Source: a virus
Lineage: Duplodnaviria; Heunggongvirae; Uroviricota; Caudoviricetes
Reading direction: 5' to 3' (one strand)
IMG/VR virus record: IMGVR_UViG_2541047777_000015
Length of the DNA stretch: 32,257 nt
The position numbers and the translations under genes are program-made. Positions 1 through 23,759 of this stretch are shown here, piece after piece. The notes beneath the pieces were generated by a model that saw nothing but the letters and a program-made list of their open reading frames with translations, was not told where the DNA came from and ran no database searches. The stretch's first letter is position 1; each line of letters opens with the position of its first letter.

Positions 1-103
1 ATGGCACTGGACAGTTATGCATCTCCGAATATTATTCCGGAGCTAAGACAACCGAATGCCGCAGCAGGTAAGATCACGCTAGGGGGGCTGGACAGAATGG
101 CTG
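1..103 (+). pseudogene. 3' portion of an unidentified gene, interrupted by IS2 (frame resumes at 1440 and ends at TGA 1532-1534)
   Basis: Frame 1 is the only frame open across 1-103. After removing IS2 and one copy of the duplicated GGCTG, the same frame continues for 31 codons to a TGA that overlaps the ATG of the next gene (ATGA). Gene identity unknown; the 5' end lies outside the window. Confidence 0.5.
99..103. repeat. IS2 target-site duplication (GGCTG), left copy
   Basis: Identical 5-mer directly abuts both IS2 termini (99-103 and 1435-1439); IS2 makes 5-bp duplications. Confidence 0.8.
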
Positions 104-114
104 TGGATTTGCCC

Positions 115-1020
115 CTATATTTCCAGACATCTGTTATCACTTAACCCATTACAAGCCCGCTGCCGCAGATATTCCCGTGGCGAGCGATAACCCAGCGCAC
201 TATGCGGATGCCATTCGTTATAATGCTCGAACGCCTCTGCAAGGTTCTTTGCTGCCGTTAACCCGTCTGGTTTGGGCATGATACTGATGTAGTCACGCTT
301 TATCGTTTTCACGAAGCTCTCTGCTATTCCGTTACTCTCCGGACTCCGCACCGCCGTGTTCTTCGGTTCAAGTCCCAACATCCGGGCGAACTGGCGTGTT
401 TCATTAGCCCGGTAGCATGAACCATTATCCGTCAGCCACTCCACTGGAGACGACGGAAGATCGTTGCCGAAGCGGCGTTCCACCGCTCCCAGCATGACGT
501 CCTGTACTGTTTCACTGTTGAAGCCGCCGGTAGTGACCGCCCAGTGCAGTGCCTCACGATCACAGCAGTCCAGCGCGAACGTGACACGCAGTCTCTCTCC
601 GTTATCACAGCAGAACTCGAACCCGTCAGAGCACCATCGCTGATTGCTTTCTTTCACGGCCACTCTGCCTGTATGTGCCCGTTTCGATGGCGGTACAGCA
701 GGTTTTCGCTCAAGCAACAGCGCATTCTGGCGCATGATCCGGTAAACACGTTTGGCATTGATCGCAGGCATACCATCAAGTTCTGCCTGTCTGCGAAGCA
801 GCGCCCATACCCGACGATAACCATACGTGGGCAGCTCTCCGATAACATGGTGTATACGGAGAAGCACATCCGTATCATCAGTGTGACGACTGCGGCGGCC
901 ATCCATCCAGTCATCGGTTCGTCTGAGAATGACGTGCAACTGCGCACGCGACACCCGGAGACAACGGCTGACTAAGCTTACTCCCCATCCCCGGGCAATA
1001 AGGGCGCGTGCGCTATCCAC
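115..1020 (-). CDS. insD: IS2 transposase OrfB (InsD), DDE integrase-core protein
   Basis: 301-aa ORF with retroviral-integrase-like motifs ([17 protein letters not shown]). Its 5' end overlaps insC at an A6G slippery run (minus strand, plus coords 1020-1026) typical of IS3-family -1 frameshift fusion. Confidence 0.85.
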
Positions 1021-1343
1021 TTTTTTGCCCGTCCATATTCAACGGCTTCTTTGAGGAGTTCATTTTCCATCGTTTTCTTGCCGAGCAGGCGCTGGAGTTC
1101 TTTAATCTGCTTCATGGCGGCAGCAAGTTCAGAGGCAGGAACAACCTGTTCTCCGGCGGCGACAGCAGTAAGACTTCCTTCCTGGTATTGCTTACGCCAG
1201 AGAAATAACTGGCTGGCTGCTACACCATGTTGCCGGGCAACGAGGGAGACCGTCATCCCCGGTTCAAAGCTCTGCTGAACAATTGCGATCTTTTCCTGTG
1301 TGGTACGCCGTCTGCGTTTCTCCGGCCCTAAGACATCAATCAT
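978..1343 (-). CDS. insC: IS2 OrfA (InsC), HTH DNA-binding transposase component
   Basis: 121-aa [29 protein letters not shown]... The track ORF (978-1388) is trimmed to the ATG at 1343. Confidence 0.85.
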
Positions 1344-1434
1344 CTGTTCTCCAATGACTAGTCTAAAAACTAGTATTAAGACTATCACTTATTTAAGTGA
1401 TATTGGTTGTCTGGAGATTCAGGGGGCCAGTCTA

Positions 1435-1530: not shown

Positions 1531-2319
1531 ATGACAAATCTACAACTGGAAGAAAGATTTAGGGCGCTTGAGAAAGATTACGATGCGCTCATTTCCACAA
1601 AATATACTGCGCAGAACGTTCTCACTCACACTATGGAAACCTATGTTGATTCTGGTAAATATAAAAACTGGATCGCCAGAGTGAAAAAGTTAATAGAGGA
1701 CAGCTACGGAAAAGAGTCTGATTATTACAATGACTTCAATACTGTAAACAGCAGGTGGTCTTCTAATTACAATACACTGATCAAAAGTTATAAACCGTTG
1801 TTTGATGCGGCGAGAGATGATCTTGCGCACTCTGCTGTCAGTACTAATACTCCTCAAGAAGGTTCGCCGCTGAGCCTCGTACTTAATATTCTTAACAGGT
1901 TTCCGACCTTTGTTCGCCAGTTAAAGAGGCGGTACAACGGCCGTGCGCCGCTTGAAGTTAATGATGAGTATGACGTACAGGATTTGATTTATGCACTGCT
2001 GACGCTTCATTTTAATGATATTAGGGCGGAAGAGTATACCCCCAGCTTTGCGGGCGCGGCCTCAAGACAGGACTTTCTTTTGAAAAAAGAGAAAATTGTG
2101 ATAGAGGTGAAGAAAACCCGTGAATCTCTGGGAGCGGGTAAAGTTGGTGGAGAGTTGCTTATTGATATGGCGCGCTACCGCGCTCACCAAGACTGCGATA
2201 CGTTGATCTTGTTTGTATATGACCCGGATTGCTACATAAATAATCCTTTGGGCGTGAAAACCGATCTGGAATCTAAAGACGCGGAAGGAAAAGTGAAGGT
2301 TGTTATTGCGCAGTTCTGA
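1531..2319 (+). CDS. hypothetical protein with PD-(D/E)XK-like C-terminal region (putative nuclease); second gene of an IS2-split operon
   Basis: ATG at 1531 preceded by GGAAGG; 262 aa. The N-terminal part looks helical (LEERFRALEKDYDAL); the C-terminal part has acidic-then-ExK spacing (EYDVQDLIYALL ... EKIVIEVKK) suggestive of a restriction-endonuclease-like fold. The start overlaps the stop of the upstream frame (ATGA). The track start at 1300 lies inside IS2 and is rejected. Family not recognised. Confidence 0.7.
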   Translation: MTNLQLEERFRALEKDYDALISTKYTAQNVLTHTMETYVDSGKYKNWIARVKKLIEDSYGKESDYYNDFNTVNSRWSSNYNTLIKSYKPLFDAARDDLAHSAVSTNTPQEGSPLSLVLNILNRFPTFVRQLKRRYNGRAPLEVNDEYDVQDLIYALLTLHFNDIRAEEYTPSFAGAASRQDFLLKKEKIVIEVKKTRESLGAGKVGGELLIDMARYRAHQDCDTLILFVYDPDCYINNPLGVKTDLESKDAEGKVKVVIAQF

Positions 2320-2406: not shown

Positions 2407-2700
2407 TCATCTTTGCCAGGTCAAATCAAAATCTACGTGAAAATCCGCAGGCTTAAGCTCGCAACTGCCACCACGCCCAATTAACGACGTTATGTTTACA
2501 ACGTTTGAACCTGTTGAGATGGCAAGTTGAGTGTCATCTGTAAACGTGATGATTAGCATTTCAGTCTGATGAACCTGTACTCCAGTTTTCTGAAAACCAA
2601 TCTGGACAGATTTCACCGTTTTCCCAACCATTTCACGGGCTTGATTGATAGAGTAATTAGCTTCAACTTGTAGGTCATTCCTGAACTTGGGTAGTGTCAT
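2407..2700 (-). CDS. hypothetical protein (97 aa)
   Basis: ATG at 2700 with a strong RBS (AAGAGGA, 7 nt spacing). Predicted beta-rich small protein; no family recognised. Confidence 0.7.
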   Translation of the reverse strand: MTLPKFRNDLQVEANYSINQAREMVGKTVKSVQIGFQKTGVQVHQTEMLIITFTDDTQLAISTGSNVVNITSLIGRGGSCELKPADFHVDFDLTWQR

Positions 2701-2910: not shown

Positions 2911-3746
<836 letters not shown>

Positions 3747-3809
3747 CTTATAATCCCTACTAGTTAGCATTATGATTTCCAGAGTGAGGAATATAAAAAT
3801 CTCTGTTTC

Positions 3810-3891
3810 TGGCACATAACAGCCCTTAAGATCGTAGCTCGCCATCATGGGGTGTCGGGGGGCGGAGGTTCAAATCCTCTCGTGCCGACCA
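3810..3891 (+). tRNA. tRNA-Pro-like partial/degenerate copy (3' half canonical), probable att-site copy, not a functional tRNA
   Basis: 3845-3891 reads TCATGGGGTGTCGGGGGGCGGAGGTTCAAATCCTCTCGTGCCGACCA: anticodon-loop-like AUGGGGU, T-arm GGAGG/TTCAAAT/CCTCT, acceptor 3' strand and CCA, matching my recollection of E. coli tRNA-Pro(GGG). The 5' part (3810-3844) only loosely resembles a tRNA 5' half (no D-arm, extra bases), so no cloverleaf forms. Confidence 0.55.
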
Positions 3892-3904
3892 AAAATCCCT
3901 TAAG

Positions 3905-3931
3905 AACCAGCCTATTATGGCTGGTTTTTTT
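3905..3931 (+). terminator. rho-independent terminator
   Basis: AACCAGCC-TATTAT-GGCTGGTT stem-loop followed by a run of 7 T, directly downstream of the tRNA-like 3' end. Confidence 0.75.
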
Positions 3932-4071
3932 ATGATTGTTTTTTATGCGGAGAAATACCGGGGAATAATTGGGGTAAAACACCTTTAGGCTATTCACTTA
4001 GCCTACCACCATCAAAATCTTTCCGAATGTATCCATCTCTTTTTTCTTATGCAGCTAAAACGAAGTCTTGA

Positions 4072-4119
4072 TACTGTTTATTTACACAGATAAGAATAAT
4101 ACTGTCTACAAACGCAGTA
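4072..4119 (+). promoter_or_regulatory. tandem LexA (SOS) boxes in the dinI-like promoter region
   Basis: TACTGTTTATTTACACAGAT (4072-4091) and TACTGTCTACAAACGCAGTA (4100-4119) both fit CTGT-N8-ACAG / CTG-N10-CAG. A TTGATA -35-like hexamer lies at 4067-4072. Confidence 0.65.
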
Positions 4120-4132
4120 CAAAAGAAGTGTT

Positions 4133-4311
4133 ATGCGTATTGAGATCTCCATAGCCAAAGACAAAATGACCAAATGCCAAACGGCGCTGTGGACGCGTTA
4201 AAGGAAGAATTAACCCAACACATTGGCAAGCGTTATGACGATGTGGAGATGATCGTAAAAGCCACCAGCAACGATAGTTTTTCAGTTAGACATACTGCAG
4301 ATAAAGATTGA
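4133..4311 (+). pseudogene. dinI-family (DNA-damage-inducible protein I-like) gene, frameshifted and C-terminally short
   Basis: ATG 4133 gives [22 protein letters not shown] (stop 4199-4201). A second frame from 4174 gives [45 protein letters not shown] (stop 4309-4311). Joined, they align with DinI (MRIEVTIAKTSPLPAGAIDALAGELSRR...), implying a 1-nt indel near 4165-4175. Confidence 0.6.
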
Positions 4312-4735
4312 GCTAAAACTTTCGTTCAGGAAACTCTGAATGATACCTGAGAGTCTACTGAAGAGTTGTTTGTTCACTAGTTAGCACGTAGGAAATCATT
4401 CAATACTCGCACTATCGGAAGTTCACCAGCCAGTCGTAGCACGTCCTTGCAAACGACGTGCCTACGGTTTCAATCACCTCTCACCATCAATTCTATCAAT
4501 AATAATTAAACAGCGCCTAGACAAAATAAATAACAACAAGTCAACAACCTCGACAGGATGCCGATGGGATGATGAAGAGATAAGAAAGAATAACCAGTAA
4601 AGCCCTAAAACGTCAGCGTTCAGACGCGTTTTTTACTTAATCGGTAACAAATACGTTGTATCATAGCAAAATAAAATGATTGTTCTAAATCAGATTAACT
4701 CCTCACTTTTGTACAATGTCGCTTACAGGTATACC

Positions 4736-6625
4736 ATGAAATCCGAGACGCTAACTGTCCAACAACTTTTTCAAGACCGCCGACAATACTGTGTTCCATT
4801 CTATCAACGTGCCTATGTATGGACTCAGCAAGACCAGTGGTCAGCTCTACTGGAGGATATCCTAGAGAAAGTACAATCCCGGCTCTCGGGTACAAAACCA
4901 ACTCCCCATTTCCTTGGTGCGGTTGTACTGGAACCTCAATCAAAAAAAGGATTATTAGGTGTAGATTCCATACATATTATTGATGGTCAGCAACGATTGA
5001 CCACTCTTCAATATGTTCTGGCATCCATCCGATTAGCATTACGTGCTACGGATCTTTCCAGCTTAGAGGCTCTCATTTCGCCTTGCCTGAAAAACTCAAA
5101 CGAAGACACAATGCGAAATAAAGAAGTAGAACGCTTCAAACTGTGGCCAACTTTTCGGGATCAAACTCATTTTATTCAAAGTTTTAATGTTGAAAATATT
5201 GACGATCTCCGGGACGTATTCTCTGATAGTTTCACGCAGCATGGTACGTTGCGTAAGCATTTTAATCACCCGCCATCACTAGAAGCATTATGTTTTTTTA
5301 CTGAAGCCTTTATAAAATGGATTAAAATAGAAAACCACTCACCACAAGAAAATGCTGTAGCTCTAATTGAGGCTGTCTTAACAGATCTGAAACTGGCAAG
5401 CATATTTCTCGAAGCTGAAGATGATGCCCAAATAATTTTTGAAACATTAAATGGGCGAGGGGCGGAACTTCATGCTACGGATCTTATTCGCAACTATATC
5501 TTTATGTGCGCTGAGCATGAAAATATTAATGCTATTGAATTATATGAAAATGAGTGGAAGAGCTTTGAAGATAAATACTGGTCGGAAAAACAACGCCGTG
5601 GACGTATTAATAAACCACGCATGGAGTGGCTAGTACATGCGACATTGCAATCAGAAAGGCAACGTGAAATTGATCTGTCTCGCCTTTACAATGAGTATCG
5701 TGATTATGTAAGTAAGGACTTGTCTTCACAACGAGCAGATCTGCAAGTAAAGCGCCTCAAACAATATGCATCACAATATAAAGAATTGGTTGATGGTTTT
5801 GGCACAACCCCCATCTCACACTTTGGATATCGCATCGCAGACTATGATGTGACGACACTTTATCCGCTTGCTTTGTTCATTTCGATAGCTAACATCGCTG
5901 ATGATGAGAAAGCAGCCATGTATAATGATCTTGTCTCCTACGTAGTACGAAGAGCCGTATGTGGCCTGACGCCAAAGAATTACAACAATGTATTTATGAA
6001 TGTATTGCGGCACTTGGCTAAAACGGAAATTTCCAGTGTTGAGTTACGTAATATCCTCAATAACTTAAATGGCGAAGCCTCACGTTGGCCTGGTGACTCA
6101 GAATTTCTCAACGCTTGCATCAATGCTCCACTTTATCCTGGCAGGCTCGACGCACCGAAAATGCGCTCAATGTTAACGGAACTTGAAAGAGAACTTTGTC
6201 GCCAAGTAAAGACAGAAAAGCCTGATGTTCCAAATCTTTCTAATCTCGATATCGATCATCTTATGCCTCAAAGTTGGTATTCCTGTTGGCCTCTCGAAAA
6301 TGGTCGTATGGTGACAAATTCAGATGCTACGGTATTGAACCAAATTGTTCTGTCTGGAACCGATCTTACCCCTGAACAGCTACTGGTAAGGAAACGGCAA
6401 CAAGCGATATCTACTTTGGGAAATCTAACTTTGCTTAACCTTAGCGTAAACCGTTCTGTTCAGAATGCTGTATTTCTGAAAAAACGTGATGCTCTCATCG
6501 TCCACACCAATCTACGACTGAACATTCCACTTATAGTTAAGGATAAATGGGATGAGGATGAAATCCTGGAGCGGGGTAAAAAGTTGGGGGAAATTGCATT
6601 GAAAGTATGGCCAAAACACGATTAA
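4736..6625 (+). CDS. GmrSD-family type IV (modification-dependent) restriction endonuclease, DUF262 (ParB-like NTPase) + DUF1524 (His-Me finger)
   Basis: 629 aa. N-terminal DUF262 motifs (YCVPFYQRAYVW; IIFETLNGRGAELHATDLIRNYIF) and C-terminal DUF1524-like motifs (DIDHLMPQSW; LGNLTLLNLSVNRS). ATG at 4736 with AGG 7 nt upstream; the track ORF starts at 4676. Confidence 0.85.
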   Translation: MKSETLTVQQLFQDRRQYCVPFYQRAYVWTQQDQWSALLEDILEKVQSRLSGTKPTPHFLGAVVLEPQSKKGLLGVDSIHIIDGQQRLTTLQYVLASIRLALRATDLSSLEALISPCLKNSNEDTMRNKEVERFKLWPTFRDQTHFIQSFNVENIDDLRDVFSDSFTQHGTLRKHFNHPPSLEALCFFTEAFIKWIKIENHSPQENAVALIEAVLTDLKLASIFLEAEDDAQIIFETLNGRGAELHATDLIRNYIFMCAEHENINAIELYENEWKSFEDKYWSEKQRRGRINKPRMEWLVHATLQSERQREIDLSRLYNEYRDYVSKDLSSQRADLQVKRLKQYASQYKELVDGFGTTPISHFGYRIADYDVTTLYPLALFISIANIADDEKAAMYNDLVSYVVRRAVCGLTPKNYNNVFMNVLRHLAKTEISSVELRNILNNLNGEASRWPGDSEFLNACINAPLYPGRLDAPKMRSMLTELERELCRQVKTEKPDVPNLSNLDIDHLMPQSWYSCWPLENGRMVTNSDATVLNQIVLSGTDLTPEQLLVRKRQQAISTLGNLTLLNLSVNRSVQNAVFLKKRDALIVHTNLRLNIPLIVKDKWDEDEILERGKKLGEIALKVWPKHD

Positions 6626-6649
6626 TGCAATTAATAAAATGATTATAGT

Positions 6650-6669
6650 GGCCTTACATTAGTAAGGCC
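6650..6669. terminator. stem-loop downstream of the GmrSD-like gene (possible terminator)
   Basis: GGCCTTAC-ATTA-GTAAGGCC, 8-bp stem. No clean T-run on the plus strand; A/T-rich flank on the minus strand. Confidence 0.4.
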
Positions 6670-6720
6670 GCTACTCACTATTAAATACTTTAATTTGCAT
6701 CAAGAACAGCAGTGTCAGCC

Positions 6721-6849
6721 CTAGGTCTCGGACTTTGTACCGCTTATCTTGTCTTCAAAAATCAGCTCGCATCCTGCACAGTTCAGCGCATTACGTTGTA
6801 GATCTGTGTTCTGGTCATTTGTTGACACACGTACATAGCCAATAAGCAT
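6721..6849 (-). pseudogene. pin: Pin/Gin/Hin-family DNA invertase (serine recombinase), N-terminal 42-codon remnant
   Basis: Minus-strand ATG at 6849 encodes MLIGYVRVSTNDQNTDLQRNALNCAGCELIFEDKISGTKSET*, matching the invertase N-terminus including the catalytic-serine motif YVRVSTNDQ. The frame stops at 6721-6723; the remaining ~140 codons are absent. Confidence 0.8.
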
Positions 6850-6875
6850 GGTAGATCTCCCTGACAAAAGCAGGA

Positions 6876-7370
6876 ATGATGCCATTTGCTCGTTATTTCT
6901 GCATTTTCATAAACGTTGGTTTGGGAGAAGCCTCAAAATTGAATGTGGGTATGCCGGAAAAACGGCCCCCTGATATGCCGCTCTCAACCGGTATGAGATG
7001 CAATGGAGAGTCTTTTTTTGCTGAAGAAGACGGGCAAATGGCTAAGGCTTATACGGTAAATATATGGCGTGCAGTGGGTGTTGAGGTTATTCCTGGTTGT
7101 GATTATGGGCGCACCGGTTATTCTAGGTGTTCTGTTCCCTCAACAACATTGCCCTCTGTAGTTCCTAATAATGTGCTGGTAGTTATCCCTTCGGGATCTA
7201 CAAGCGCTTATGGTGCTAAATTTACCGATACTGCAGGTTTTGAAGCGACGAGGGGTAATATTATTGCCAGCAACGGGAGGGATCATTCCATTTTGTTCAA
7301 AGTCGCCATAACCCTGATTGCAGCCCGTCCTCGCGACATTAGAGTCAACTCTATCGTGATTGGAGGGTAA
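6876..7370 (+). CDS. alternative tail-fibre variable C-terminal segment (S'v-like) inside the invertible segment
   Basis: The ORF begins in the left crossover repeat; residues VGLGEASKLNVG repeat the [12 protein letters not shown] encoded at the end of the constant tail-fibre ORF. It can only be fused to the constant part after inversion. Confidence 0.55.
   Translation: MMPFARYFCIFINVGLGEASKLNVGMPEKRPPDMPLSTGMRCNGESFFAEEDGQMAKAYTVNIWRAVGVEVIPGCDYGRTGYSRCSVPSTTLPSVVPNNVLVVIPSGSTSAYGAKFTDTAGFEATRGNIIASNGRDHSILFKVAITLIAARPRDIRVNSIVIGG
6904..6929. repeat. hix/gix-like inversion crossover site (left, inverted relative to 8831-8856)
   Basis: Reverse complement TTCTCCCAAACC-AA-CGTTTATGAAAA resembles the 26-bp hix consensus TTATCAAAAACC-AA-GGTTTTTGATAA. 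A ~45-bp inverted repeat with 8805-8848 shares a 16-bp identical core TTGGTTTGGGAGAAGC. It lies ~55 bp upstream of the pin remnant. Confidence 0.6.
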
Positions 7371-8830
7371 TGGATAAAGCAATATTCTATAGACGCGTTA
7401 GTACAACAATTGAACTGCATGTTTTGTTTTATAAATATGAGGATGAAGGTCCGCATCATAATGACATTTTAAAAAAATATCTTGCAGTAGGTGAGCATTT
7501 CCCGGGACTTTCCCGACTAGGTACAGAAGGTAGCCATGACGCTGCTGGTGGTCTATTTCGGTTTATGTCTCTACCTTCATCGGAAGAGGATCAGGTGTAT
7601 ACGGGTGAAATCGTCAAAATATCCTAGGTGTGAGAATTAAAAACATACACCACACCCGGTCAGTACCCTGACAATACTGCCACTGTTCGCCCATTAGCCG
7701 CATAAGATGAGTAAGATGGTTCGAGGCGGGATTCCCAGGCTGCACCGGAGCTTATCGATGCAGTCTACGCGGCAGAAGTAGAATGGCATTCACCTCTGGC
7801 TGCTGCAGTCAGTTGCAATCCTGCGCTTTGGCTGTATTTATTGCCCGGACGGAATCAGTTTAATGCAGAACAAAGTTGAGCTGGGTTTTTTCTGGATGAC
7901 ATAGACGCGGTGCCGGCAACAAATTCCGGCGAATCAGACGGAGGCAACCGACTTGAGCTGCAGGAAGTGTCGGACGTTCAATTTCTGGCGCGTATACTGC
8001 GGCGATCTGTTCTGCCGCAGCAACGGACTCCAACCTCTCATCATACTACTTATCGTACTCCCTTATCGGAGGAACAGTGGTAGCATTGTCAGGGCACTGA
8101 CCGGTTGCTATGAAGGGATTGACTTCTGAAGTCTAAGAGATATAGACGATTTCAGCGGGCTGGTCTTCCACATATTTCCAAGAAGTTGGAGTCTCAGACC
8201 GTAATGTCGGATATCAACCGTCATGTCCAATTGGTTTCCCTAGTGAGTGCAGTGCAGGAAATCGATCACATATGTCTATAGTATTTCTAGTAATAGCAAC
8301 AGAATGCGTTGTCTCACCATCATAGTCATGAACGATATCATCCACTTCCTTTCTAGTAACTACGGGTGTAATGAATACTGCTTTCTTCATTACCCTGCAC
8401 TCATTAACTAGTTGACGGCGATGTCGCAAGGAAAGGTAGCGTCCGGTTTAATGGCCACTGTACACACCACGGACTTGTTATCCCTGTTAGCAACGATAGT
8501 GTAAACCGCCGTCGCTCAAATACCTGCTAAATTACTGGATACACCACCATAAGCGGTTGAAGTTCCCAGGGGGATAACTAGCACCACATAAATAGTAACT
8601 ACAAATGGCACTTTTGTTGAGGCCACAGAACGCCTTTTATAAACTGCGCGCCCATCATCCCAATCAGTAATTCACTTCCCAGCCAATTGACGCAATATAC
8701 TTGCCGTAACCACCTTTGTCAGTTCCGGGTAAGGTTCAGGAATAACAGAAGTACCGTTGCAATTCGGACCCCCCGTGGAAGACGTGTCTGAAGGTCATTG
8801 AACACGGATACCAACATTTAATTTTGCCGC
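6930..8830. other. invertible tail-fibre segment (G/P-segment-like), largely decayed
   Basis: Bounded by the inverted hix/gix-like sites. Contains the S'v-like ORF and a small ORF on the plus strand; the minus-strand region 7630-8795 has only short, stop-interrupted frames. Confidence 0.55.
7370..7627 (+). CDS. hypothetical protein (85 aa), possibly a tail-fibre assembly chaperone remnant
   Basis: ATG overlaps the stop of the S'v-like ORF (TAATG), which is the usual position of a tail-fibre assembly gene. No family recognised. Confidence 0.4.
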   Translation: MDKAIFYRRVSTTIELHVLFYKYEDEGPHHNDILKKYLAVGEHFPGLSRLGTEGSHDAAGGLFRFMSLPSSEEDQVYTGEIVKIS

Positions 8831-9133
8831 TTCTCCCAAACCAAGGTTTTCGAGAGCCGTTTTCACCGTGCCGTCCGATTTGATATCGCTAAACGGATTC
8901 TTGCGGCTTAACAGCAGCGCACGAAGCGCGGTAAGCAGCTGGTCGTGCCGCGCCTTCTCCAGACTGGCACCGGATGCCTCCACCACGCTGCAGAGTTCTT
9001 CCTGCAACATGTCAAAGTAGTCATCATCCAGATCGGTGGCAGGCGTGCCTGTCTGGGGGTTACCACGGGTAAAACCGTTCTTACCCGCGCCGAACTTATC
9101 CTTCTGCGCGGTTTTCGTGTCTATACGATGCAT
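8795..9133 (-). CDS. tail-fibre protein, constant N-terminal part (Sc-like), ending 13 codons inside the invertible segment
   Basis: 112-aa ORF with RBS GGAG 8 nt upstream. It follows the DUF2313 and baseplate genes in Mu/e14 order. The C-terminal [15 protein letters not shown] is encoded by the crossover repeat, with a stop immediately after. Confidence 0.65.
8831..8856. repeat. hix/gix-like inversion crossover site (right)
   Basis: TTCTCCCAAACC-AA-GGTTTTCGAGAG, 17/24 half-site matches to the hix consensus. Lies inside the 3' end of the constant tail-fibre ORF. Confidence 0.6.
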
Positions 9134-9136
9134 GGA

Positions 9137-9721
9137 TTACTCCGGATATTTAAAAATTACGTAGGTATGCGAAGGGCAGAGTTTGTTAAGCACACATTCG
9201 ACGACGGTGTCGCCCCAGATACGCAGCGCGGAATCACAGGGATCGCCACATGTCATCCAGGTGCTGTTGGTGGCGGCTGGCATGTTGACCTGCCAGTAAT
9301 ACCGCCATTCCGGCGCATTCACCGCGTCAGTACAGGCCGATGAGCAGGTGAACGTGCTTTTGTCGTATCGCGTGATGGTGGCGTCTGGTCTGCCCAGGGC
9401 AGCAAGCTGTGCAAGGTAAAAATCCTCATTGATGCCGCCCGCCAGGTTAACCTTCGCATCCAGTCGTTGCTGACGCTGGCGAAGGGTCTGTGTTCCTGCG
9501 GGAATACATTCATCCGGCAGGCCGCACAGACGCTCCCAGCGATTTATCAGTTCGGTGGTGGTGCGCGGATCCAGCTCCCGCATCAGGGCATCCGCACGCT
9601 GATGAACGCGGGTTAATGACTGTGCCGCACCGGCAATCGCCGGATCGCTGGCTGACCACGCCGGACCGGGCGGCAGCAGTGCCGACAACAGACGGATGTA
9701 ATCATCGTTTGTCACGCCCAT
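9137..9721 (-). CDS. phage tail protein, DUF2313 (Mu gp48 / e14 YmfQ-like)
   Basis: 194 aa, located between the baseplate J-like gene and the tail fibre as in Mu-type tail modules. Confidence 0.7.
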
Positions 9722-10770
9722 GAAATCGTCCCCAGAACCGCCAGTTCATTTTTTGCAATGGAGATATTTTCCGCCGGTGCAAGCAATTGATGGCTGTATT
9801 CCCCGTTCGCACCGGAAATCGCTTCACTGATACGCGACACCTTCAGTTCTCCCTGCGGATAACCATCACGCAGCAGGAACGAACGCAACTCCGCGGTGAT
9901 GGCAGCCCGTATTTCCGGTGTATCCGGCGTCACACGGATATGAAAATCCACCGTATGCGCCACCGGCCTGAACACATACAAATCAGAGCCTGCCACCGGG
10001 GCCAGTGGCCCGATATGTTGTCTTGCCGCCGTTTCCGTTGATTCTTCCGGAATGGGATTAATCAGGTCACTGCTGGCAATCATCACACCGACAGTCCCCG
10101 TTCCCATCCAGTGACGGTATGCCCATGCGCGGGTAATGCCGGGCAATTCTTTAGCCCAGACAACATAGTCCCCGTCAGCCCCGCCCTGAGGCGTCCAGTA
10201 ATACCGCTCAATGACGCGGGCGCGCCACGTTTCCAGCTCTTCAGTATCAAATCCACCTGTCAGAGTGTCTGCCACGCCGGAAGACGGCAGACCATTAACC
10301 GGCGTGACCAGGATTAATGACGTACCGTCGTCAGCGTTACCGACCGCGCCTGCACTTGAGCAGGCGATCGGCACGCGCAGGACACCACCGGCGCTGGTTG
10401 CATCGGCAGTTGCCGTGTACTGAATCAGGTCATCGCGCTGAATAACACTCCCGGCGGTCACCTTCAGGCCATCGCTGACGCCTTCCCAGCGCATATACCC
10501 GCTGGCAGTCGTGGCCCCCTTGCGCGGACACCGTTTCATCGCAGCATGTCGCGCCAGCCAGGACTCATCGCACAGGTCAGGCAGCATGTTCATTGCCAGA
10601 TAATCGATGTACCCGTAAACCGTATGCAGCGCCGCCGCATACACCTTTGCCCGCACGTCTTCATCCATGCGCCGGAGCGTGTCGCTGACGTCCAGCCTGG
10701 CGAATAAATCGTTACGGAGCATACTGATATTTTCTGCCAGCGTCGGGCGCTGAAATTCACTGTCCGCCAT
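9712..10770 (-). CDS. baseplate J-like protein (Mu gp47 family)
   Basis: 352 aa; position and size fit the baseplate wedge J family; overlaps neighbours as in an operon. Confidence 0.75.
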
Positions 10771-14194: not shown

Positions 14195-16030
14195 TTACCT
14201 GCCAAAGCGCGTATAGCCAACATCATGGCTGACATCAAAACCGCTGGATCGCGTTTCCATAACCCGCATACCCGGAGGTGAATTCACAAAAGAGACCTTG
14301 ATCTCACCATCAACTTTTGGCGCAGAAGCTTTGTTAATCATGAAGGGATTCGGGCCTGTGGCACCGGAGGCGTTGTTTGACTGAGCCGGATCCACCGCCT
14401 GATAAGGTGTGTATCCCCGTGCCGGTATTCCCGTCCCATAAGCATCATAAGCACCCGCGCCCCACTGCGCAGAGTTAATGGCATCGACCGTGTCACCGGA
14501 ACTGTCGGTAAACCACTCAATAATTGGCTTCAGCTTGTCCCACATATCCTGAAACCACTTAACAACCGGTCCCCAGTTATTGATTACCATCCCCAGCGGC
14601 GACCAGGCAAAAACCTTCTTCAGAAGTTCCCGGCCAGCCTCAAAATAAGGACCAATGGTTTCCCAGAGCTTCTTGAAATAAGGTCCGACAACATCCCAGT
14701 TAGTGATAATTAATCCCGCAGCCAGGGCTATCGCCGTCGCAATCATGCCAATCGGCGTCATCGACATGATCCTGCTGACAATACTGATGGCACCGCCAAC
14801 GCCCATCAATCCCAGTTTCAGAATCGCAAGACCGGCAGCAAGCCCGACGACGCCGCGAATAACCCGGGGATTTTCATCCGCAAACTTCGTGAATTTCTCC
14901 CCCAACTCCCCCAGCCATTGCGTGATATTTTTAGCGTCACCAGAAAATGCGCCGCCAATAGCCGCAAGGCCGTTAGTTGCGGTCCCTGTCATTGCCTCCC
15001 ACAGGTTGGACAGCGTACCAAGCTGTGCCTGAACACGTTTATTCAGACTGGCCTGTTTATTCATCTTCTGCTGGATCTGGTCGTAGCCATCCTTTCCTTT
15101 ATCGATTAGTGCATTGACCACCTGAAGGGTTTCGGCATCATCACCAAATATTGCCTTAAGTACACCAGTTCGCTTAACGTCGGTCAGTTTTCGCAGCTTT
15201 GCCAGTTGCCTGAACATGTTATCAAGACCGCCAAAACTCCCTTTGCCGTCAGTAAAATCGAGCTGTACCCCGAGTTTCTGGCGGGCCATGACTTTATTGA
15301 CGTCCCTGATTTTCTTAACGCTTAATCCGGACTGGATAACTTTTCGCAGGGCGTTACCTGCCGACTCCCCGTTCATCCCCATCTGATCCATCATGACGCT
15401 GATGGGGGCAAGGCTCTGTGCAGCCTGAAGACCGTCCTTGTTCACCATCTTCAGAACAGAGCTGGTTTTAGTGAAGAAGGACAACATGTTGGTATCGTCA
15501 ACGCCCAGATAAAACGCCTTCTGGATAGTGTCGAACAGCCCCATCATGTCTTCTGACGCCGTTCCGGTAGCATCCTGCATCTTTGCGGCAAACTCGGCAG
15601 CCGCTTCCGGTGTTTTTTTCAGTTGTACCGCAAGATAAGCTGTCGCTTTACCCACACCGCCAAGAATGTTTTCTGCCGGGATCCCCTGACGCACCAGCAT
15701 CTGCATCATGTTCTGGAAATCAGCCGTTGTACCGGGTAGCTGGTTACCCAGACCAATAGCCAGTTTATTGATGTCCTGAAAGCGCTTTCCGACCTCACCG
15801 TTCGCATCCATCATGGCAACTTTCAGCCCGGTGGCGGCGTTTTCCTGATCGGCATAAGATTTCAGGGAAAGCGTCAGACCCGCAGCCAGTCCGCCACCAA
15901 GCGCCAGCCCACCCTGTGACGCTTCTTCCGCCTGGCGTTTAAATCCCCGGATTTTCTTTTGCATTTTCGACAGCGCGGGAGAAAGCCTGTCGACACCGGT
16001 GATCAACGCCTTAAGCTCAAATTCAGCCAT
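14195..16030 (-). CDS. tail tape measure protein
   Basis: 611 aa with Gly/Ala-rich helical and hydrophobic segments. Follows the frameshifted chaperone pair; RBS AGGAG upstream. Confidence 0.85.
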   Translation of the reverse strand: MAEFELKALITGVDRLSPALSKMQKKIRGFKRQAEEASQGGLALGGGLAAGLTLSLKSYADQENAATGLKVAMMDANGEVGKRFQDINKLAIGLGNQLPGTTADFQNMMQMLVRQGIPAENILGGVGKATAYLAVQLKKTPEAAAEFAAKMQDATGTASEDMMGLFDTIQKAFYLGVDDTNMLSFFTKTSSVLKMVNKDGLQAAQSLAPISVMMDQMGMNGESAGNALRKVIQSGLSVKKIRDVNKVMARQKLGVQLDFTDGKGSFGGLDNMFRQLAKLRKLTDVKRTGVLKAIFGDDAETLQVVNALIDKGKDGYDQIQQKMNKQASLNKRVQAQLGTLSNLWEAMTGTATNGLAAIGGAFSGDAKNITQWLGELGEKFTKFADENPRVIRGVVGLAAGLAILKLGLMGVGGAISIVSRIMSMTPIGMIATAIALAAGLIITNWDVVGPYFKKLWETIGPYFEAGRELLKKVFAWSPLGMVINNWGPVVKWFQDMWDKLKPIIEWFTDSSGDTVDAINSAQWGAGAYDAYGTGIPARGYTPYQAVDPAQSNNASGATGPNPFMINKASAPKVDGEIKVSFVNSPPGMRVMETRSSGFDVSHDVGYTRFGR

Positions 16031-16190
16031 GTGTGCGTTTCTCCTGCTCTATCCTGTTTGCCTGACTGACCAGCAAGGGAATTTCACTGATCGGCATATT
16101 CAGCAATTCGAAGGGATTAATGCGCCAGTAGCTGGCGCAGTCAAAGAAGCGATCAGTGAGGTATTCAGCCGTCAGGCCTGGAGGAAAAAA
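16023..16190 (-). CDS. tail assembly chaperone -1 frameshift extension (GT-like product, joined to 16190-16441)
   Basis: The overlapping -1 frame is open from the slippery heptamer T TTT TTC (minus strand, plus coords 16184-16190) to a stop at 16023, just before the tape measure start. Confidence 0.6.
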   Translation of the reverse strand, partial: FFPPGLTAEYLTDRFFDCASYWRINPFELLNMPISEIPLLVSQANRIEQEKRTHG

Positions 16191-16441
16191 CCAGCCACAA
16201 GCCACGCCGCAGCATTCAGGTCTGCCGGAGACATCTGGTCGACAGAGTTTTGCGGCACTTTCGCCAGCCGCACAATGTATTTCGATACCACATGCGCCAG
16301 AAGTCTGACGGACTCATCCTGATTCATCTGGTAGGGATACCCCAGCTCGCGGACATCTTTCCCGGTGGGCTCATCAAACTCCAGTACGGAGAGTGTCTCG
16401 CCATGAGCGGTAATCGGTTTCTTTAACTCAAGCTCTTTCAT
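16172..16441 (-). CDS. tail assembly chaperone (lambda G / Mu gp41-like)
   Basis: 89-aa ORF immediately upstream of the tape measure gene; contains the slippery site near its 3' end. Confidence 0.7.
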   Translation of the reverse strand: MKELELKKPITAHGETLSVLEFDEPTGKDVRELGYPYQMNQDESVRLLAHVVSKYIVRLAKVPQNSVDQMSPADLNAAAWLVAGFFLQA

Positions 16442-16797
16442 TACTGGTAATCCCCTTCTTCACCGTGGAACTCAAGATCAACCGTCCCTTCTTCGGCATT
16501 ATGGTTCGCTTCGCCGTGCAGCCAGGCAGACGACAGTACATAGACCTGACCGTTCGCCAGCTCGGCAGTGATGGTCATCTCATCAGACGAGGTGATTTTG
16601 CTCACCGGAAAATTCTTCGGCACCTTGAAGGTCCCTTTAACATAAGGCGCACGGTGAGTTTCCTTGCGGTCCACTGAACCGTCCAGGCCGATGATGTCAT
16701 CATTGACCGTCCTGTTCATGGGCACCTCAATGCCGCCGGTCAGCGATAGCTGCTGACCGTCAATTTTGAAATAACAGGTTCCCCCGATACGGGCCAT
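16441..16797 (-). CDS. contractile tail tube protein
   Basis: 118 aa, directly downstream of the sheath gene; stop/start overlaps with both neighbours. Confidence 0.75.
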   Translation of the reverse strand: MARIGGTCYFKIDGQQLSLTGGIEVPMNRTVNDDIIGLDGSVDRKETHRAPYVKGTFKVPKNFPVSKITSSDEMTITAELANGQVYVLSSAWLHGEANHNAEEGTVDLEFHGEEGDYQ

Positions 16798-18293
16798 TAT
16801 GCGGACTCCTCTGAATACTGAAGACGGAACTGGTTAACCACGGCAAAGACACGCAACTGGTTAACATAGTCAGGCGGGAACAGCGTGTTCAGGCGGTTCG
16901 GATCGCTGGCATCACGCTCCACAACCAGGTACTGCTTAAAAAGTTCGTAGTTTTCCACGATCCCCGCACGCTCAAGCTGACGGTAGGTTGCCAGCAGTTC
17001 CCCTTTGATCACCGCCGGGGTGACAATCGCCTGACCGGGACCAAAGCGGGTACCGTCGCTGGCAAGCTTGTGACGCCCGTACTTACTGGTAATGACGGAT
17101 TTCAGTTTGCGCAGTACATACGCACTGGTATGCAGCGTCTCGCTGTCGAGGTAGCTGTTATCCGCAACCCCGTAAGCGTTTTTCCTGTACGTGGTGACAT
17201 CACGCTGAATGCGCAGTACCCCGCTTTCGACATACGCCGTTGCCACGCCATGAGACAGCAGGGTCTTTTGTTCGGTCATCGTGAACCGTTTCCCCTTCGG
17301 CGCAGGCAGCATACCCACCAGCTCACCGGTCTGCGTGGGACGTGCCGGATCGTTGCGGATAAACACCGCTGCGCGGGCGGTACGGCTTGCCGCCAGCTCG
17401 TCGGCAGGCGTCTGGGTGTCTTTTTCGTACCCCGCCAGGGTAATGTGCTGCTGGTTAAACTGGTCACCTGCGGTCACCAGTTCTGACAGCGTGCCGGTCT
17501 TTGCCGTATACACATGACCATACAGCTGACGCGCATAGCTCCAGCGACCGCTGGTATCGTTCATCTCGGTCACCAGCGTGTTAACGGAGGCCGTGTCGTT
17601 GAACGGCAGGCCGATATAATCAAACGGCTCATCCGCCATTGCAGCCACAGCGCCGGTGAGAACCGGAGCACCCGTTCCGGCGGTACCCGTCACCACGGCA
17701 ATCTGTACGCCCGCTGGCAGCACTTCGCCCCCACCAAAGCCGTAGTAATTGAGGCTGACAGGAATTTCATTCCCGCAAAGCCCCTTATGACGCGCGGTCA
17801 GTGTGACCACGCCTGCCGAAGATGAAGCCGTAAACGGCAGGGTCGGAACGGCATTGATGGCATCCTGGATACTGCTGGCAATCATCGTAACGTTATCGCC
17901 GTTAGTCACCGGTACCTGCACGCGGGTACGTCCCACATACACATTCACCGTGCCGGTTTCGGTTGCCGCCCCGGTCACCGTCAGCGTAACCGTTGCCGCC
18001 GCGCCTGTGGATTCAGGAACGGCAATCACATACAGCTCGCCAAACGGGTCAGTCTGGCGATAAGCCTCGACCATACGCGCCAGCTGACTTCCCGCACCAC
18101 AAATCTGGCGTGCATAGTCTGCCGACGGCATCAGTACCAGACTGTTGGCAACAATCTCTGCACCGTTATTGGCATGACCAATCAGCAGCGATGCTCCGCT
18201 GTCCTGTGCAGTATTCGCAGCCTGGTTATCCATTTCCGCATAAAACAGCGGAACCAGCGTATTCGACGGAATGGTGTTAAAGCTTATCGTCAT
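16797..18293 (-). CDS. contractile tail sheath protein
   Basis: 498 aa; RBS AAGGTG upstream; followed by tube, chaperone and tape measure genes. Confidence 0.85.
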   Translation of the reverse strand: MTISFNTIPSNTLVPLFYAEMDNQAANTAQDSGASLLIGHANNGAEIVANSLVLMPSADYARQICGAGSQLARMVEAYRQTDPFGELYVIAVPESTGAAATVTLTVTGAATETGTVNVYVGRTRVQVPVTNGDNVTMIASSIQDAINAVPTLPFTASSSAGVVTLTARHKGLCGNEIPVSLNYYGFGGGEVLPAGVQIAVVTGTAGTGAPVLTGAVAAMADEPFDYIGLPFNDTASVNTLVTEMNDTSGRWSYARQLYGHVYTAKTGTLSELVTAGDQFNQQHITLAGYEKDTQTPADELAASRTARAAVFIRNDPARPTQTGELVGMLPAPKGKRFTMTEQKTLLSHGVATAYVESGVLRIQRDVTTYRKNAYGVADNSYLDSETLHTSAYVLRKLKSVITSKYGRHKLASDGTRFGPGQAIVTPAVIKGELLATYRQLERAGIVENYELFKQYLVVERDASDPNRLNTLFPPDYVNQLRVFAVVNQFRLQYSEESA

Positions 18294-23566: not shown

Positions 23567-23748
23567 TATTTACCTCCGCCGACAGACAGCTGTGTACGAT
23601 CGAGATATCGCGCCACCAGCCACGACCAGAACAGGCACAGCGCCCCGGCAACAACAAAACCCGCCGGGGGATAAATCAGCCAGGCACCATATGCCAGCAA
23701 AAGCGCACCCAGCACGCCCACCAGAGGCGCGAGAATCAGCATGATCAT
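23566..23748 (-). CDS. hypothetical small membrane protein (60 aa)
   Basis: Two hydrophobic helices ([23 protein letters not shown]; [16 protein letters not shown]), between terminase and portal. Confidence 0.5.
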
Positions 23749-23759
23749 AATTACCTCAG

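What the first reader, a model, noticed from the sequence alone, without database searches (positions are those of the whole stretch)
4736..6625. GmrSD-family type IV restriction gene occupies the pin-mcrA slot of an e14-like prophage end
Downstream of the tail-fibre invertible segment, e14-type prophages carry the invertase pin followed by the type IV restriction gene mcrA. Here only the first 42 codons of the invertase remain, and a DUF262/DUF1524 protein on the opposite strand with its own stem-loop replaces the rest. This looks like a defence-gene swap at a prophage hotspot, with the insertion having deleted most of the invertase.
Basis: partly seen in the sequence, partly recalled or inferred. 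Interest (0 to 1): 0.55.

Follow-up and report, generated by a model that had tools for sequence, protein, structure and literature searches.

The report
Known GmrSD restriction gene inside pin
The gene is the already characterised UTI89-type GmrSD enzyme, which cuts sugar-modified DNA of T-even phages; it sits inside the hollowed-out invertase gene of an e14/SfII-like prophage, an old arrangement shared by about 6% of complete E. coli genomes.

Summary
Window 4736..6625 (+) encodes a 629-aa GmrSD_N + GmrSD_C protein followed by a strong stem-loop, and 41-42 codons of a Pin-type invertase lie next to it on the other strand.

The gene is not new. It differs by one residue (A221V) from UTI89_C2960, the published "UT enzyme", a single-chain type IV restriction enzyme for glycosylated-hmC phage DNA. 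The window is collinear with the UTI89 prophage at ssrA. He et al. 2015 already noted that these genes sit just after prophage tail-fibre genes.

The swap idea is supported, with a correction. The roughly 2.2-kb cassette (4486..~6727) replaces the interior of pin. The pin terminator hairpin and its last few codons survive at 4391..4485. The true post-pin slot holds a DinI pseudogene, not gmrSD.

The same right junction is seen in one sampled locus from each of the three gmrSD allele groups (306 of 5426 complete genomes carry the gene), so the event looks old and inherited.

In relatives with intact pin, the post-pin slot holds McrA, PD-T4-3, Ppl or unknown genes.

An unexpected extra: window 6930..8830 is a per-base mix of both orientations of the invertible segment. 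Both orientations also occur among genomes with the same truncated pin, so inversion probably continues through an invertase supplied in trans.

The parts
4736..6625 (+). gmrSD: single-chain type IV modification-dependent restriction endonuclease, 629 aa, UTI89 allele with A221 in place of V221
   Evidence: Pfam GmrSD_N and GmrSD_C. PADLOC mREase_IV full length, 1413 bits. One residue different from UTI89 WP_000834402.1. DGQQR at residue 83; D507-H508-N522.
4486..4735 (+). 5' part of the gmrSD cassette: untranslated leader and presumed promoter, which was not identified
   Evidence: Homology among sampled loci of the gmrSD allele groups begins at 4391/4392 and runs through this stretch. There is no homology here to intact-pin loci. 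No + strand promoter-like site was found here.
6646..6673 (+). Stem-loop after the gmrSD stop codon (12-bp stem, 4-nt loop), presumed terminator
   Evidence: -25 kcal/mol for 6626..6700, z = -5.86, 0 of 200 shuffles fold as well. Conserved in L008, L009 and L010.
6728..6850 (-). 5' stub of the pin invertase gene (41 codons, with a degenerate continuation to about 6697). Keeps the Ser-containing N-terminus but lacks residues ~43-184, so it is non-functional as a recombinase. It may still carry the cis-acting recombinational enhancer (inference).
   Evidence: Pfam Resolvase E 6.5e-9. 100% identical over 203 nt to the intact pinE locus L006 and 81.5% to e14 pinE. The enhancer position is by analogy with Hin/Gin (PMC3798978, PMC3378877).
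4391..4485 (-). 3' end of the pin locus: the last ~4-5 codons plus a stop (4474..4485) and the hairpin that follows pin in intact loci (about 4431..4469)
   Evidence: Window 4391..4470 matches L005 6490..6568 (83.8%), ending at the pinE stop. Window 4419..4485 matches L006 6518..6583. Alignment; fold.
6904..6929 (-). Crossover site of the invertible segment (26 bp, TTCTCCCAAACCAACGTTTATGAAAA on the - strand) inside inverted-repeat arm 6911..6952
   Evidence: Inverted repeat 6911-6952 / 8808-8849, 42 nt, 88% complementary. Sequence read. The resemblance to hix/gix sites is from memory.
6953..8807 (.). Invertible tail-fibre segment. In this window it is an artefactual per-base consensus of both orientations.
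   Evidence: Across 6880..8880, 740 bases match only the UTI89 orientation, 673 only the inverse, 588 both and 0 neither. No megablast match in 5426 E. coli genomes. No long ORFs.
4174..4390 (+). DinI-like pseudogene. It occupies the true post-pin slot.
   Evidence: Pfam DinI E 1.7e-7 on a 45-aa ORF. RefSeq: frameshifted with an internal stop. Window 4068..4470 is contiguous with DinI and its downstream hairpin in phage 2H10.
3805..3895 (+). tRNA-Pro-like relic. The 3' half is intact and ends in ...GGTTCAAATCCTCTCGTGCCGACCA; the 5' half is decayed.
   Evidence: Sequence. ARAGORN finds no tRNA. Decayed copies lie next to the pin terminator in L005, L008 and L009. Identification as tRNA-Pro is from memory of the E. 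coli proL sequence.
2911..3684 (-). PD-T4-3 (GIY-YIG nuclease), a single-gene anti-T-even defence
   Evidence: PADLOC PD-T4-3, 453 bits. Pfam LEM-3_GIY-YIG. RefSeq WP_000353910.1 in UTI89.
1531..2319 (+). 262-aa protein with a C-terminal DpnII/MboI-type restriction endonuclease domain
   Evidence: Pfam PF18742, E 9.5e-49. PADLOC Aga_Helical-REase, E 7.8e-27.
105..1434 (-). IS2 insertion, absent from UTI89, 96 bp upstream of the REase-domain gene
   Evidence: Window 1-104 and 1435 onward are contiguous in UTI89, with a ~6-bp overlap. NCBIfam IS2 TnpB 728 bits and TnpA 276 bits.

Best explanation
Window 4736..6625 encodes the UTI89 allele of GmrSD, a stand-alone single-chain type IV restriction endonuclease.

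Mechanism, taken from published work on this enzyme and its 93%-identical relative Eco94GmrSD: the N-terminal DUF262 domain binds nucleotide and is involved in substrate recognition. The C-terminal DUF1524 His-Me finger (D507-H508-N522) cuts DNA that carries glucosyl-, arabinosyl- or plain hydroxymethylcytosine, with NTP stimulation. A lysogen therefore destroys incoming T-even-type phage DNA while its own unmodified DNA is spared. The UTI89 allele is reported to restrict T2, T6 and RB69, not to restrict T4, and to be insensitive to the T4 inhibitor IPI*.

Genomic anatomy, shown here: the gene, its ~250-nt leader and its own stem-loop form a ~2.2-kb low-GC cassette. The cassette replaces codons ~42 to ~180 of the pin invertase gene of an e14/SfII-like prophage integrated at ssrA. 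The pin 5' stub, the pin stop codon and the pin terminator all remain. This was probably a single old event, since passed between prophages by recombination in the flanking conserved DNA, because the same junction occurs at three chromosomal sites.

Inferred: the invertible tail-fibre segment still flips using an invertase supplied in trans.
For: Identity:
- Pfam GmrSD_N and GmrSD_C and PADLOC mREase_IV over the full length.
- One-residue difference from UTI89 WP_000834402.1, and the catalytic D507-H508-N522 and DGQQR motifs are present.
- The window is collinear with the UTI89 prophage at 97.8% over 30.8 kb.

Published function:
- PMC4437046: the UT enzyme restricts T2 and T6, does not restrict T4, and is IPI*-insensitive; D507A, H508A and N522A abolish Eco94GmrSD activity.
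- PMC6024577: the UTI89 enzyme restricts RB69.

Stand-alone status: no methyltransferase, dnd, ssp or BREX genes are annotated or detected near gmrSD in the stretch between ssrA and the tail genes. The far early region of the UTI89 prophage does carry a phage N-6-adenine methyltransferase.

Junctions:
- The right junction at 6727/6728 is the same in the window, L008, L009 and L010.
- The left flank 4391..4485 is homologous to the DNA at and just after the pinE stop in three intact-pin loci.
- GC is about 0.39-0.44 across the cassette, against 0.55-0.61 in the baseplate genes.

Age and spread:
- 306 of 5426 complete genomes carry the gene, in three allele groups.
- Sampled loci lie at ssrA (UTI89), next to paoD (L008, L009) and at argW/intS (L010).

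Ongoing inversion:
- UTI89 and IHE3034 have the same gmrSD protein and the same pin stub but opposite segment orientation.
- 79 genomes hold one orientation and 24 the other.
- The window itself is a roughly 50:50 per-base mix.
- PinQ of prophage Qin inverts the e14 P segment in trans (PMC12529663).
Against: - No experiment was done on this exact A221 variant.
- No promoter was identified for the cassette.
- The last-codons homology at 4474..4485 is short (9 of 12 matches with L006, fewer with L005 and L007), so the left junction is known only to within about 12 nt.
- No terminal repeats or target duplication mark the cassette, so the insertion mechanism is unknown.
- A second invertase gene was not demonstrated in any of these genomes. 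UTI89 shows only one megablast match to the pin 5' region.
- The mixed consensus in the window could come from pooled strains rather than from switching within one culture.
- The shared junction was read in one sampled locus per allele group, not in all 306 genomes.
Confidence: 0.88

Rival explanations
1. One reading: gmrSD sits in the slot downstream of pin that mcrA occupies in e14, as a like-for-like swap of one type IV enzyme for another. The insertion would have clipped pin from its 3' side.
For: e14 has pinE followed by mcrA and then the attachment site. Both genes encode modification-dependent HNH-type nucleases at the tail-fibre end of e14-like prophages. The post-pin slot is clearly variable and rich in defence genes.
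Against: The DNA on the far side of gmrSD (4391..4485) is the pin terminator plus the pin stop region found directly after intact pinE in L005, L006 and L007. The cassette is therefore internal to pin, and the post-pin slot lies further left, where it holds a DinI pseudogene. gmrSD is convergent with pin, whereas mcrA runs in the same direction as pin. There is no homology to the e14 pin-mcrA spacer.
Confidence: 0.1
2. The 4391..4470 hairpin belongs to the DinI unit rather than to pin. In that case the whole block DinI'-hairpin-gmrSD was joined to pin codon 41, with complete loss of the pin 3' end.
For: In phages 2H10 and PhiR63_1, DinI and window 4312..4470 are contiguous at about 83% identity.
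Against: L008 and L009 carry gmrSD with the same 4391.. flank but no DinI. Three intact-pin loci have this hairpin directly after the pinE stop without DinI. Similarity to those loci continues 12 nt past the hairpin into the pin stop and last codons.
Confidence: 0.07
3. The protein is the nuclease arm of a multi-gene system (SspE-like phosphorothioate sensing, a BrxU-like BREX accessory, or a DndB-like regulator) rather than a stand-alone restriction enzyme.
For: PADLOC gives secondary hits to SspE N-terminal regions (E 1e-16 and weaker) and to 'Orf5'/HEC-06 models.
Against: The best hit is the full-length mREase_IV model at 1413 bits; the SspE hits cover only about 100 N-terminal residues. 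The neighbouring genes are a DinI pseudogene, PD-T4-3, a hypothetical gene, a REase-domain protein and tail fibres, with no ssp, dnd or brx genes. The near-identical UTI89 gene restricts phages when expressed alone (PMC4437046).
Confidence: 0.03
4. gmrSD is ancestral at this position and these prophages never had a full invertase.
For: Every gmrSD locus examined has the truncated pin.
Against: Both ends of pin are present around the cassette. Relatives with nearly identical tail modules have a 184-aa pinE. The cassette GC is far below that of the prophage structural genes.
Confidence: 0.02

Closest known systems
EcoUTI89GmrSD (UTI89_C2960, WP_000834402.1, the 'UT enzyme')
   Same: 628 of 629 residues are identical. 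It sits in the same prophage, with the same flanks and the same truncated pin.
   Different: A221 in the window against V221 in UTI89. The window also has an IS2 about 3.3 kb upstream that UTI89 lacks.
Eco94GmrSD (ECSTEC94C_1402, WP_000834395) and EcoCT596 GmrS/GmrD
   Same: Same length (629 aa for Eco94), same two domains and the same D507-H508-N522 site. Also prophage-borne just after the tail-fibre genes (PMC4437046).
   Different: About 93% identical to the UTI89 enzyme. Eco94 and CT596 restrict T4 lacking IPI and are blocked by IPI*, whereas the UTI89 allele is reported not to restrict T4 and to ignore IPI* (PMC4437046). In the 93% allele sampled here (L009), divergence is concentrated in the first 135 codons (dS 0.69 against 0.11).
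McrA of prophage e14
   Same: A modification-dependent nuclease carried at the pin/tail-fibre end of the same prophage family.
   Different: An unrelated protein (N-terminal 5mC reader plus HNH). It lies after an intact pinE and in the same direction as it. gmrSD lies inside pin and is convergent with it.
BrxU and SspE (GmrSD-family proteins inside BREX or Ssp islands)
   Same: DUF262 plus DUF1524 architecture (PMC12707154).
   Different: Only weak or partial profile similarity. phmmer against PDB found one distant DUF262 chain, 9jfl_B, at E 6.6e-8. There are no BREX or Ssp neighbours.
P2-type prophage defence hotspots (Z/fun-tin, old)
   Same: Variable defence cargo next to the tail-fibre genes of a temperate phage, often with a DNA invertase in the locus (bioRxiv 10.1101/2024.10.15.618418).
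   Different: A different phage family. Here one cassette has gone into the invertase gene itself rather than between conserved genes.

Membership tests
[quoted passage not shown] | N-terminal DUF262/GmrSD_N domain with the DGQQR motif | tested here: met
   PF03235, E 2.7e-33, residues 8-256. DGQQR at residue 83.
[quoted passage not shown] | C-terminal DUF1524/GmrSD_C His-Me finger with the (D/E/H)HxxP motif and catalytic D507-H508-N522 | tested here: met
   PF07510, E 3.5e-20, residues 451-619. DIDHLMP with D507-H508 and N522 present. The mutational evidence is for Eco94GmrSD (PMC4437046).
[quoted passage not shown] | Close sequence relationship to an experimentally characterised member | tested here: met
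   One substitution relative to UTI89_C2960. PADLOC mREase_IV matched 1-629 of 629 at 1413 bits.
[quoted passage not shown] | Stand-alone, with no cognate methyltransferase or partner genes | tested here: met
   The neighbours between ssrA and the tail genes are a DinI pseudogene, PD-T4-3, a hypothetical gene, a REase-domain protein, the pin stub and tail fibres. A phage N-6-adenine methyltransferase lies far away in the early region of the UTI89 prophage.
[quoted passage not shown] | NTP-stimulated cleavage that depends on hmC or glycosyl-hmC | not testable with these tools
   Published for Eco94GmrSD in vitro and for the UTI89 enzyme in vivo (PMC4437046, PMC6024577). Not measured for the A221 variant.
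e14/SfII-like prophage (tail-fibre end) | Mu-type baseplate module jayE-ymfQ-stfP followed by an invertible tail-fibre segment between inverted repeats | tested here: met
   95.5% identity to e14 over 8815..10499. Pfam Baseplate_J and Mu Gp48. Inverted repeats 6911-6952 / 8808-8849.
e14/SfII-like prophage (tail-fibre end) | Intact pin invertase followed by mcrA | tested here: not met
   Only 41 codons of pin remain and there is no mcrA.
Pin/Gin/Hin DNA invertase (functional gene) | Complete catalytic and DNA-binding domains, about 184-190 aa | tested here: not met
   The remnant covers Resolvase-domain profile positions 2-47 of 145 only. Intact relatives are 184 aa.
Transposon or insertion-sequence-borne cassette | Terminal inverted repeats, a target-site duplication or a transposase | tested here: not met
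   No repeats at the cassette ends apart from a 12-nt AT-rich direct repeat at chance level. No transposase lies inside 4486..6727.

The most novel reading that the evidence does not exclude
The pin gene was hollowed out rather than deleted because its first ~120 nt are needed in cis. In Hin and Gin systems the Fis-dependent recombinational enhancer lies inside the 5' coding region of the invertase gene, about 100 bp from the crossover site.

The retained stub (6728..6850), together with the crossover site at 6904..6929, would let the tail-fibre segment keep switching with an invertase borrowed from another prophage. The freed space then serves as a reusable landing pad for defence genes. L010 supports the landing-pad idea: gmrSD itself has been replaced there by an unknown 445-aa gene, leaving only its last 59 nt.

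On this reading the prophage keeps host-range switching, or Stf-based receptor masking, while having traded its own recombinase for an anti-T-even nuclease.
Probability: 0.3. Interest if true: 0.45.

Novelty: already known. Interest (0 to 1): 0.2.

Why it matters
The practical value is mainly as a correction. Automated annotation still calls this protein a "DUF262 domain-containing protein", yet it is one of the founding, experimentally studied GmrSD enzymes. It matters for phage therapy against ExPEC/ST95-type strains, where T-even phages with glycosylated hmC would be restricted.

Three smaller points appear not to have been described in the papers I could search:
- The cassette lies inside pin, with both pin ends preserved.
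- The same junction has spread to several prophage integration sites.
- The orphaned invertible segment still occurs in both orientations.

The mixed-orientation consensus is also a warning: 1.9 kb of this window is not a real sequence.

Tried and rejected
- **tRNA or attachment site at 3838..3895.** ARAGORN finds no tRNA, and Rfam finds nothing relevant in 3600..7000. The relic is tRNA-Pro-like but unrelated to the actual integration site, which is ssrA.
- **Strict terminator and promoter scan.** The gmrSD stem-loop fails the T-run rule, and no + strand promoter-like site lies upstream of the gene.
- **Mobile-element hallmarks at the cassette ends.** None were found.
- **Positive selection on the N-terminal region** (possible IPI* evasion). 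dN/dS is about 0.15 throughout. The excess N-terminal divergence of the L009 allele is matched by high dS, so it points to a mosaic origin rather than adaptive change.
- **A donor context outside E. coli.** The one genome-contig scan gave a 78%-identical gene in Enterobacteriaceae bacterium B14 with unrelated flanks, plus two distant homologues. No donor element was identified.
- **Phage genome collection.** No phage record carries this gene, either at DNA level or at protein level (best 25% identity).
- **A second invertase in UTI89.** This could not be searched genome-wide with these tools. Megablast shows only one pin-5'-like place in UTI89.
- **Structure prediction.** Not run, because the protein is one residue from a characterised enzyme.
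Full report

Yes. The six-frame ORF list shows a 629-aa reading frame at 4736..6625 on the + strand. A longer mechanical start exists at 4676.

Pfam places residues 8-256 in GmrSD_N (PF03235, formerly DUF262; E 2.7e-33). It places residues 451-619 in GmrSD_C (PF07510, formerly DUF1524; E 3.5e-20). The PADLOC model mREase_IV is matched from residue 1 to 629 of a 629-position profile at 1413 bits. The DGQQR motif is at residue 83. The nuclease residues D507, H508 and N522 are present.

The hairpin after the stop codon has its core at 6646..6673, with a 12-bp stem. The 75-nt stretch folds at -25 kcal/mol against -9.8 ± 2.6 for shuffles (z = -5.9). It has no T-run, so the strict terminator scan does not list it.

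On the - strand, 6850 down to 6728 is homologous to the first 41 codons of pinE. Identity is 81.5% to e14 and 96-100% to other pinE genes. Pfam Resolvase matches at E 6.5e-9.

The prophage is e14-like. Window 8815..10499 is 95.5% identical to e14 stfP-ymfQ-jayE. Window 23159..24896 is 97.8% identical to the e14 terminase remnant.

**2. What the gene is**

The window is collinear with the E. coli UTI89 chromosome just after ssrA. Window 1-104 and 1435-32257 match UTI89 at 97.8%. The gap between them is an IS2.

The UTI89 gene at the same position (UTI89_RS14420, WP_000834402.1, annotated only as "DUF262 domain-containing protein") differs from the window's protein at one residue, A221V. This is UTI89_C2960, the "UT enzyme" of the Black and Xu laboratories.

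PMC4437046 describes it as follows:
- It is a fused single-chain GmrSD, 93% identical to Eco94GmrSD (629 aa).
- It is insensitive to the T4 inhibitor IPI*.
- It does not restrict T4 with or without IPI, but restricts T2, T6 and other T-even phages.

PMC6024577 adds that it restricts RB69, whose DNA carries arabinosyl-hmC.

For Eco94GmrSD the same paper shows NTP-stimulated cleavage of glc-hmC and hmC DNA. It also shows loss of activity in D507A, H508A and N522A. The mechanism I give is therefore transferred from published work on near-identical proteins, not derived here.

[quoted passage not shown] The word "invertase" does not occur in it.

**3. Anatomy of the insertion**

I compared the window with three loci that have a full 184-aa pinE and very similar flanks:
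- L005: UPEC_U013.
- L006: O55:H7 strain DEC5B.
- L007: strain 106.

*Right junction.* Identity to these loci is 96-100% from the tail-fibre side through the pin promoter and ATG, down to window 6728. It then collapses. A degraded resemblance with a 1-nt deletion may continue to about 6697.

*Left junction.* Window 4391..4470 matches L005 6490..6568 at 83.8%. That stretch ends exactly at the pinE stop codon, since pinE is at 6568..7122 on the - strand. With L006 the match runs on to window 4485, about 12 nt into the end of pinE (9 of 12 positions identical, with the stop retained as TGA). This stretch contains the hairpin that follows pin in the intact loci.

The roughly 2.2 kb from 4486 to ~6727 therefore replaces the interior of pin and leaves both ends in place. 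GC is 0.39-0.44 across it, against 0.55-0.61 in the baseplate genes. No terminal repeats, target duplication or transposase mark it. How it got there is unknown.

**4.

In intact-pin relatives, the gene just beyond the pin terminator varies:
- a PD-T4-3 homologue in L007 (465 bits);
- a 165-aa unknown protein followed by a split Ppl system in L005;
- two unknown proteins in L006;
- mcrA in e14, in a different orientation and without this terminator.

In the window that position holds a DinI-like pseudogene (4174..4390). To its left come a tRNA-Pro-like relic (3805..3895), PD-T4-3 (2911..3684), a 97-aa unknown gene, and a protein with a DpnII/MboI-type nuclease domain (1531..2319).

All of this lies inside a roughly 43-kb element. 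It is bracketed by a 185-nt repeat of the ssrA 3' end, with the integrase at the far end. The "defence hotspot at the prophage end" reading is therefore sound. gmrSD is simply not in the hotspot proper.

**5. Age and spread**

gmrSD is found in 306 of 5426 complete E. coli genomes. There are three allele groups: at least 99% identity (122 genomes), about 96.5% (102) and about 93.5% (82).

A sampled locus from each group, plus IHE3034, has the truncated pin with the same right junction and the same left flank starting at 4391. The prophages sit at different chromosomal sites, namely ssrA and next to paoD.

In L010, a different baseplate type at argW, the same pin stub, the stem-loop and the last 59 nt of gmrSD are present. 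The rest of gmrSD has been replaced by an unknown 445-aa gene. That protein has no Pfam or NCBIfam match and only faint PADLOC hits to Lit and PD-Lambda-2_B.

The replacement of pin therefore looks like a single old event that has since moved by recombination. It was not created in this strain.

The alleles evolve under purifying selection (dN/dS about 0.15). The first 135 codons of the 93% allele have dS 0.69, against 0.11 for the rest, which points to a mosaic origin.

No record among 50,697 phage genomes carries the gene.

**6. An unexpected artefact, and what it implies**

Window 6950..8800 has no megablast match in any complete E. coli genome and contains no long ORF.

I compared it base by base with the UTI89 invertible segment in both orientations. 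Of 2001 positions (6880..8880):
- 740 match only the forward orientation;
- 673 match only the inverse;
- 588 match both;
- none matches neither.

The window here is therefore a consensus built from reads of both orientations in roughly equal amounts. It is not a real sequence.

Independently, UTI89 and IHE3034 carry the same GmrSD protein and the same pin stub but have the segment in opposite orientations. Among complete genomes, 79 show the gmrSD-stub-segment junction in one orientation and 24 in the other. Inversion has thus continued after pin was destroyed.

The simplest explanation, which is inferred and not shown, is an invertase supplied in trans. This has just been demonstrated for PinQ of prophage Qin acting on the e14 P segment (PMC12529663).

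In Hin and Gin systems the 65-bp Fis-dependent enhancer lies inside the 5' part of the invertase gene, 99 bp from the crossover site (PMC3798978; PMC3378877). By analogy, the retained 123-nt stub would contain it, about 50-175 bp from the 26-bp crossover site at 6904..6929. That would explain why the stub is kept. I found no extra sequence conservation of the stub relative to gmrSD (about 4% against 3.4% divergence between the window and L008), so this remains a hypothesis.

**7. Comparison with known systems, and verdict**

The protein meets every sequence-level criterion of the GmrSD family and is one residue from a characterised member. It is stand-alone, with no Ssp, Dnd or BREX partner genes.

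As a prophage feature, it resembles McrA of e14 in kind and in general location, but not in exact position or orientation.

The finding is a correct reading of the sequence and a reasonable evolutionary inference. However, the gene, its activity and its tail-fibre-adjacent prophage location are already published.

Three details I did not find in the searchable literature:
- the cassette is internal to pin;
- the junction is shared across integration sites;
- the orphan segment continues to invert.

They are modest in scope.

Novelty: already known. Interest: 0.2.

Noticed in passing
window 6930..8830: The invertible tail-fibre segment in the window is a per-base mixture of both orientations of the UTI89 segment (740 forward-only, 673 reverse-only, 588 both, 0 neither). 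It has no ORFs and no megablast match in 5426 genomes. This is an assembly or polishing artefact from a population mixed in orientation.
   Followed up: yes
L004 (UTI89) 15820..18226 versus L012 (IHE3034) 5428..7834: The same gmrSD protein and the same truncated pin, but the segment is inverted between the two strains. Among complete genomes, 79 have one orientation next to gmrSD and 24 the other. This implies inversion without a local invertase.
   Followed up: partly
window 105..1434: An IS2 (TnpA and TnpB, NCBIfam 276 and 728 bits) is inserted 96 bp upstream of the REase-domain gene. It is absent from UTI89, MS7163 and IHE3034 and could alter expression of that gene.
   Followed up: partly
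window 2911..3684 (-): PD-T4-3, a GIY-YIG single-gene defence active against T-even phages, lies 1 kb from gmrSD. The prophage end therefore carries two nucleases aimed at the same phage group. A homologue sits directly after intact pinE in L007.
   Followed up: partly
window 1531..2319 (+) and 2407..2700 (-): A 262-aa protein with a C-terminal DpnII/MboI-type endonuclease domain (Pfam E 9.5e-49; PADLOC 'Aga_Helical-REase') and no methyltransferase beside it, plus a 97-aa protein with no family match. Possibly another defence gene pair.
   Followed up: no
window 3805..3895: A tRNA-Pro-like relic with an intact 3' half and a decayed 5' half. ARAGORN does not call it. Decayed copies lie next to the pin terminator in L005, L008 and L009, although the prophage integrates at ssrA. 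It may be a leftover attachment site from an ancestor that used a tRNA-Pro gene.
   Followed up: partly
window 4174..4390: A DinI-like pseudogene (frameshifted with an internal stop). Its 3' end and downstream hairpin are contiguous in phages 2H10 and PhiR63_1 at about 83% identity.
   Followed up: partly
L010 4643..6160 (NZ_OZ282453.1): In another prophage type, at argW, the pin stub, the gmrSD stem-loop and the last 59 nt of gmrSD remain. The rest of gmrSD has been replaced by an unknown 445-aa gene (WP_053275928.1; faint Lit-like hit, E 6e-4). This is a second round of cargo replacement inside pin.
   Followed up: partly
L009 6001..6405 (STEC005 gmrSD allele, codons 1-135): Synonymous divergence from the window allele is 0.69 in the first 135 codons against 0.11 in the rest, with dN/dS about 0.15 in both. 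The N-terminal segment of this allele appears to come from a more distant relative (mosaic gene).
   Followed up: partly
L005 2375..5128 and L009 2105..5281: Other defence cargo beyond pin or gmrSD in relatives: a Ppl system split into two ORFs (PADLOC 159 and 356 bits) and a 1058-aa type ISP/IIG restriction-modification enzyme (935 bits).
   Followed up: no
window 4670..4681 and 6633..6644: A perfect 12-nt direct repeat, AATAAAATGATT, lies just before the longer gmrSD start and just after its stop. This is about what chance gives for AT-rich DNA of this length, but the positions are suggestive.
   Followed up: no
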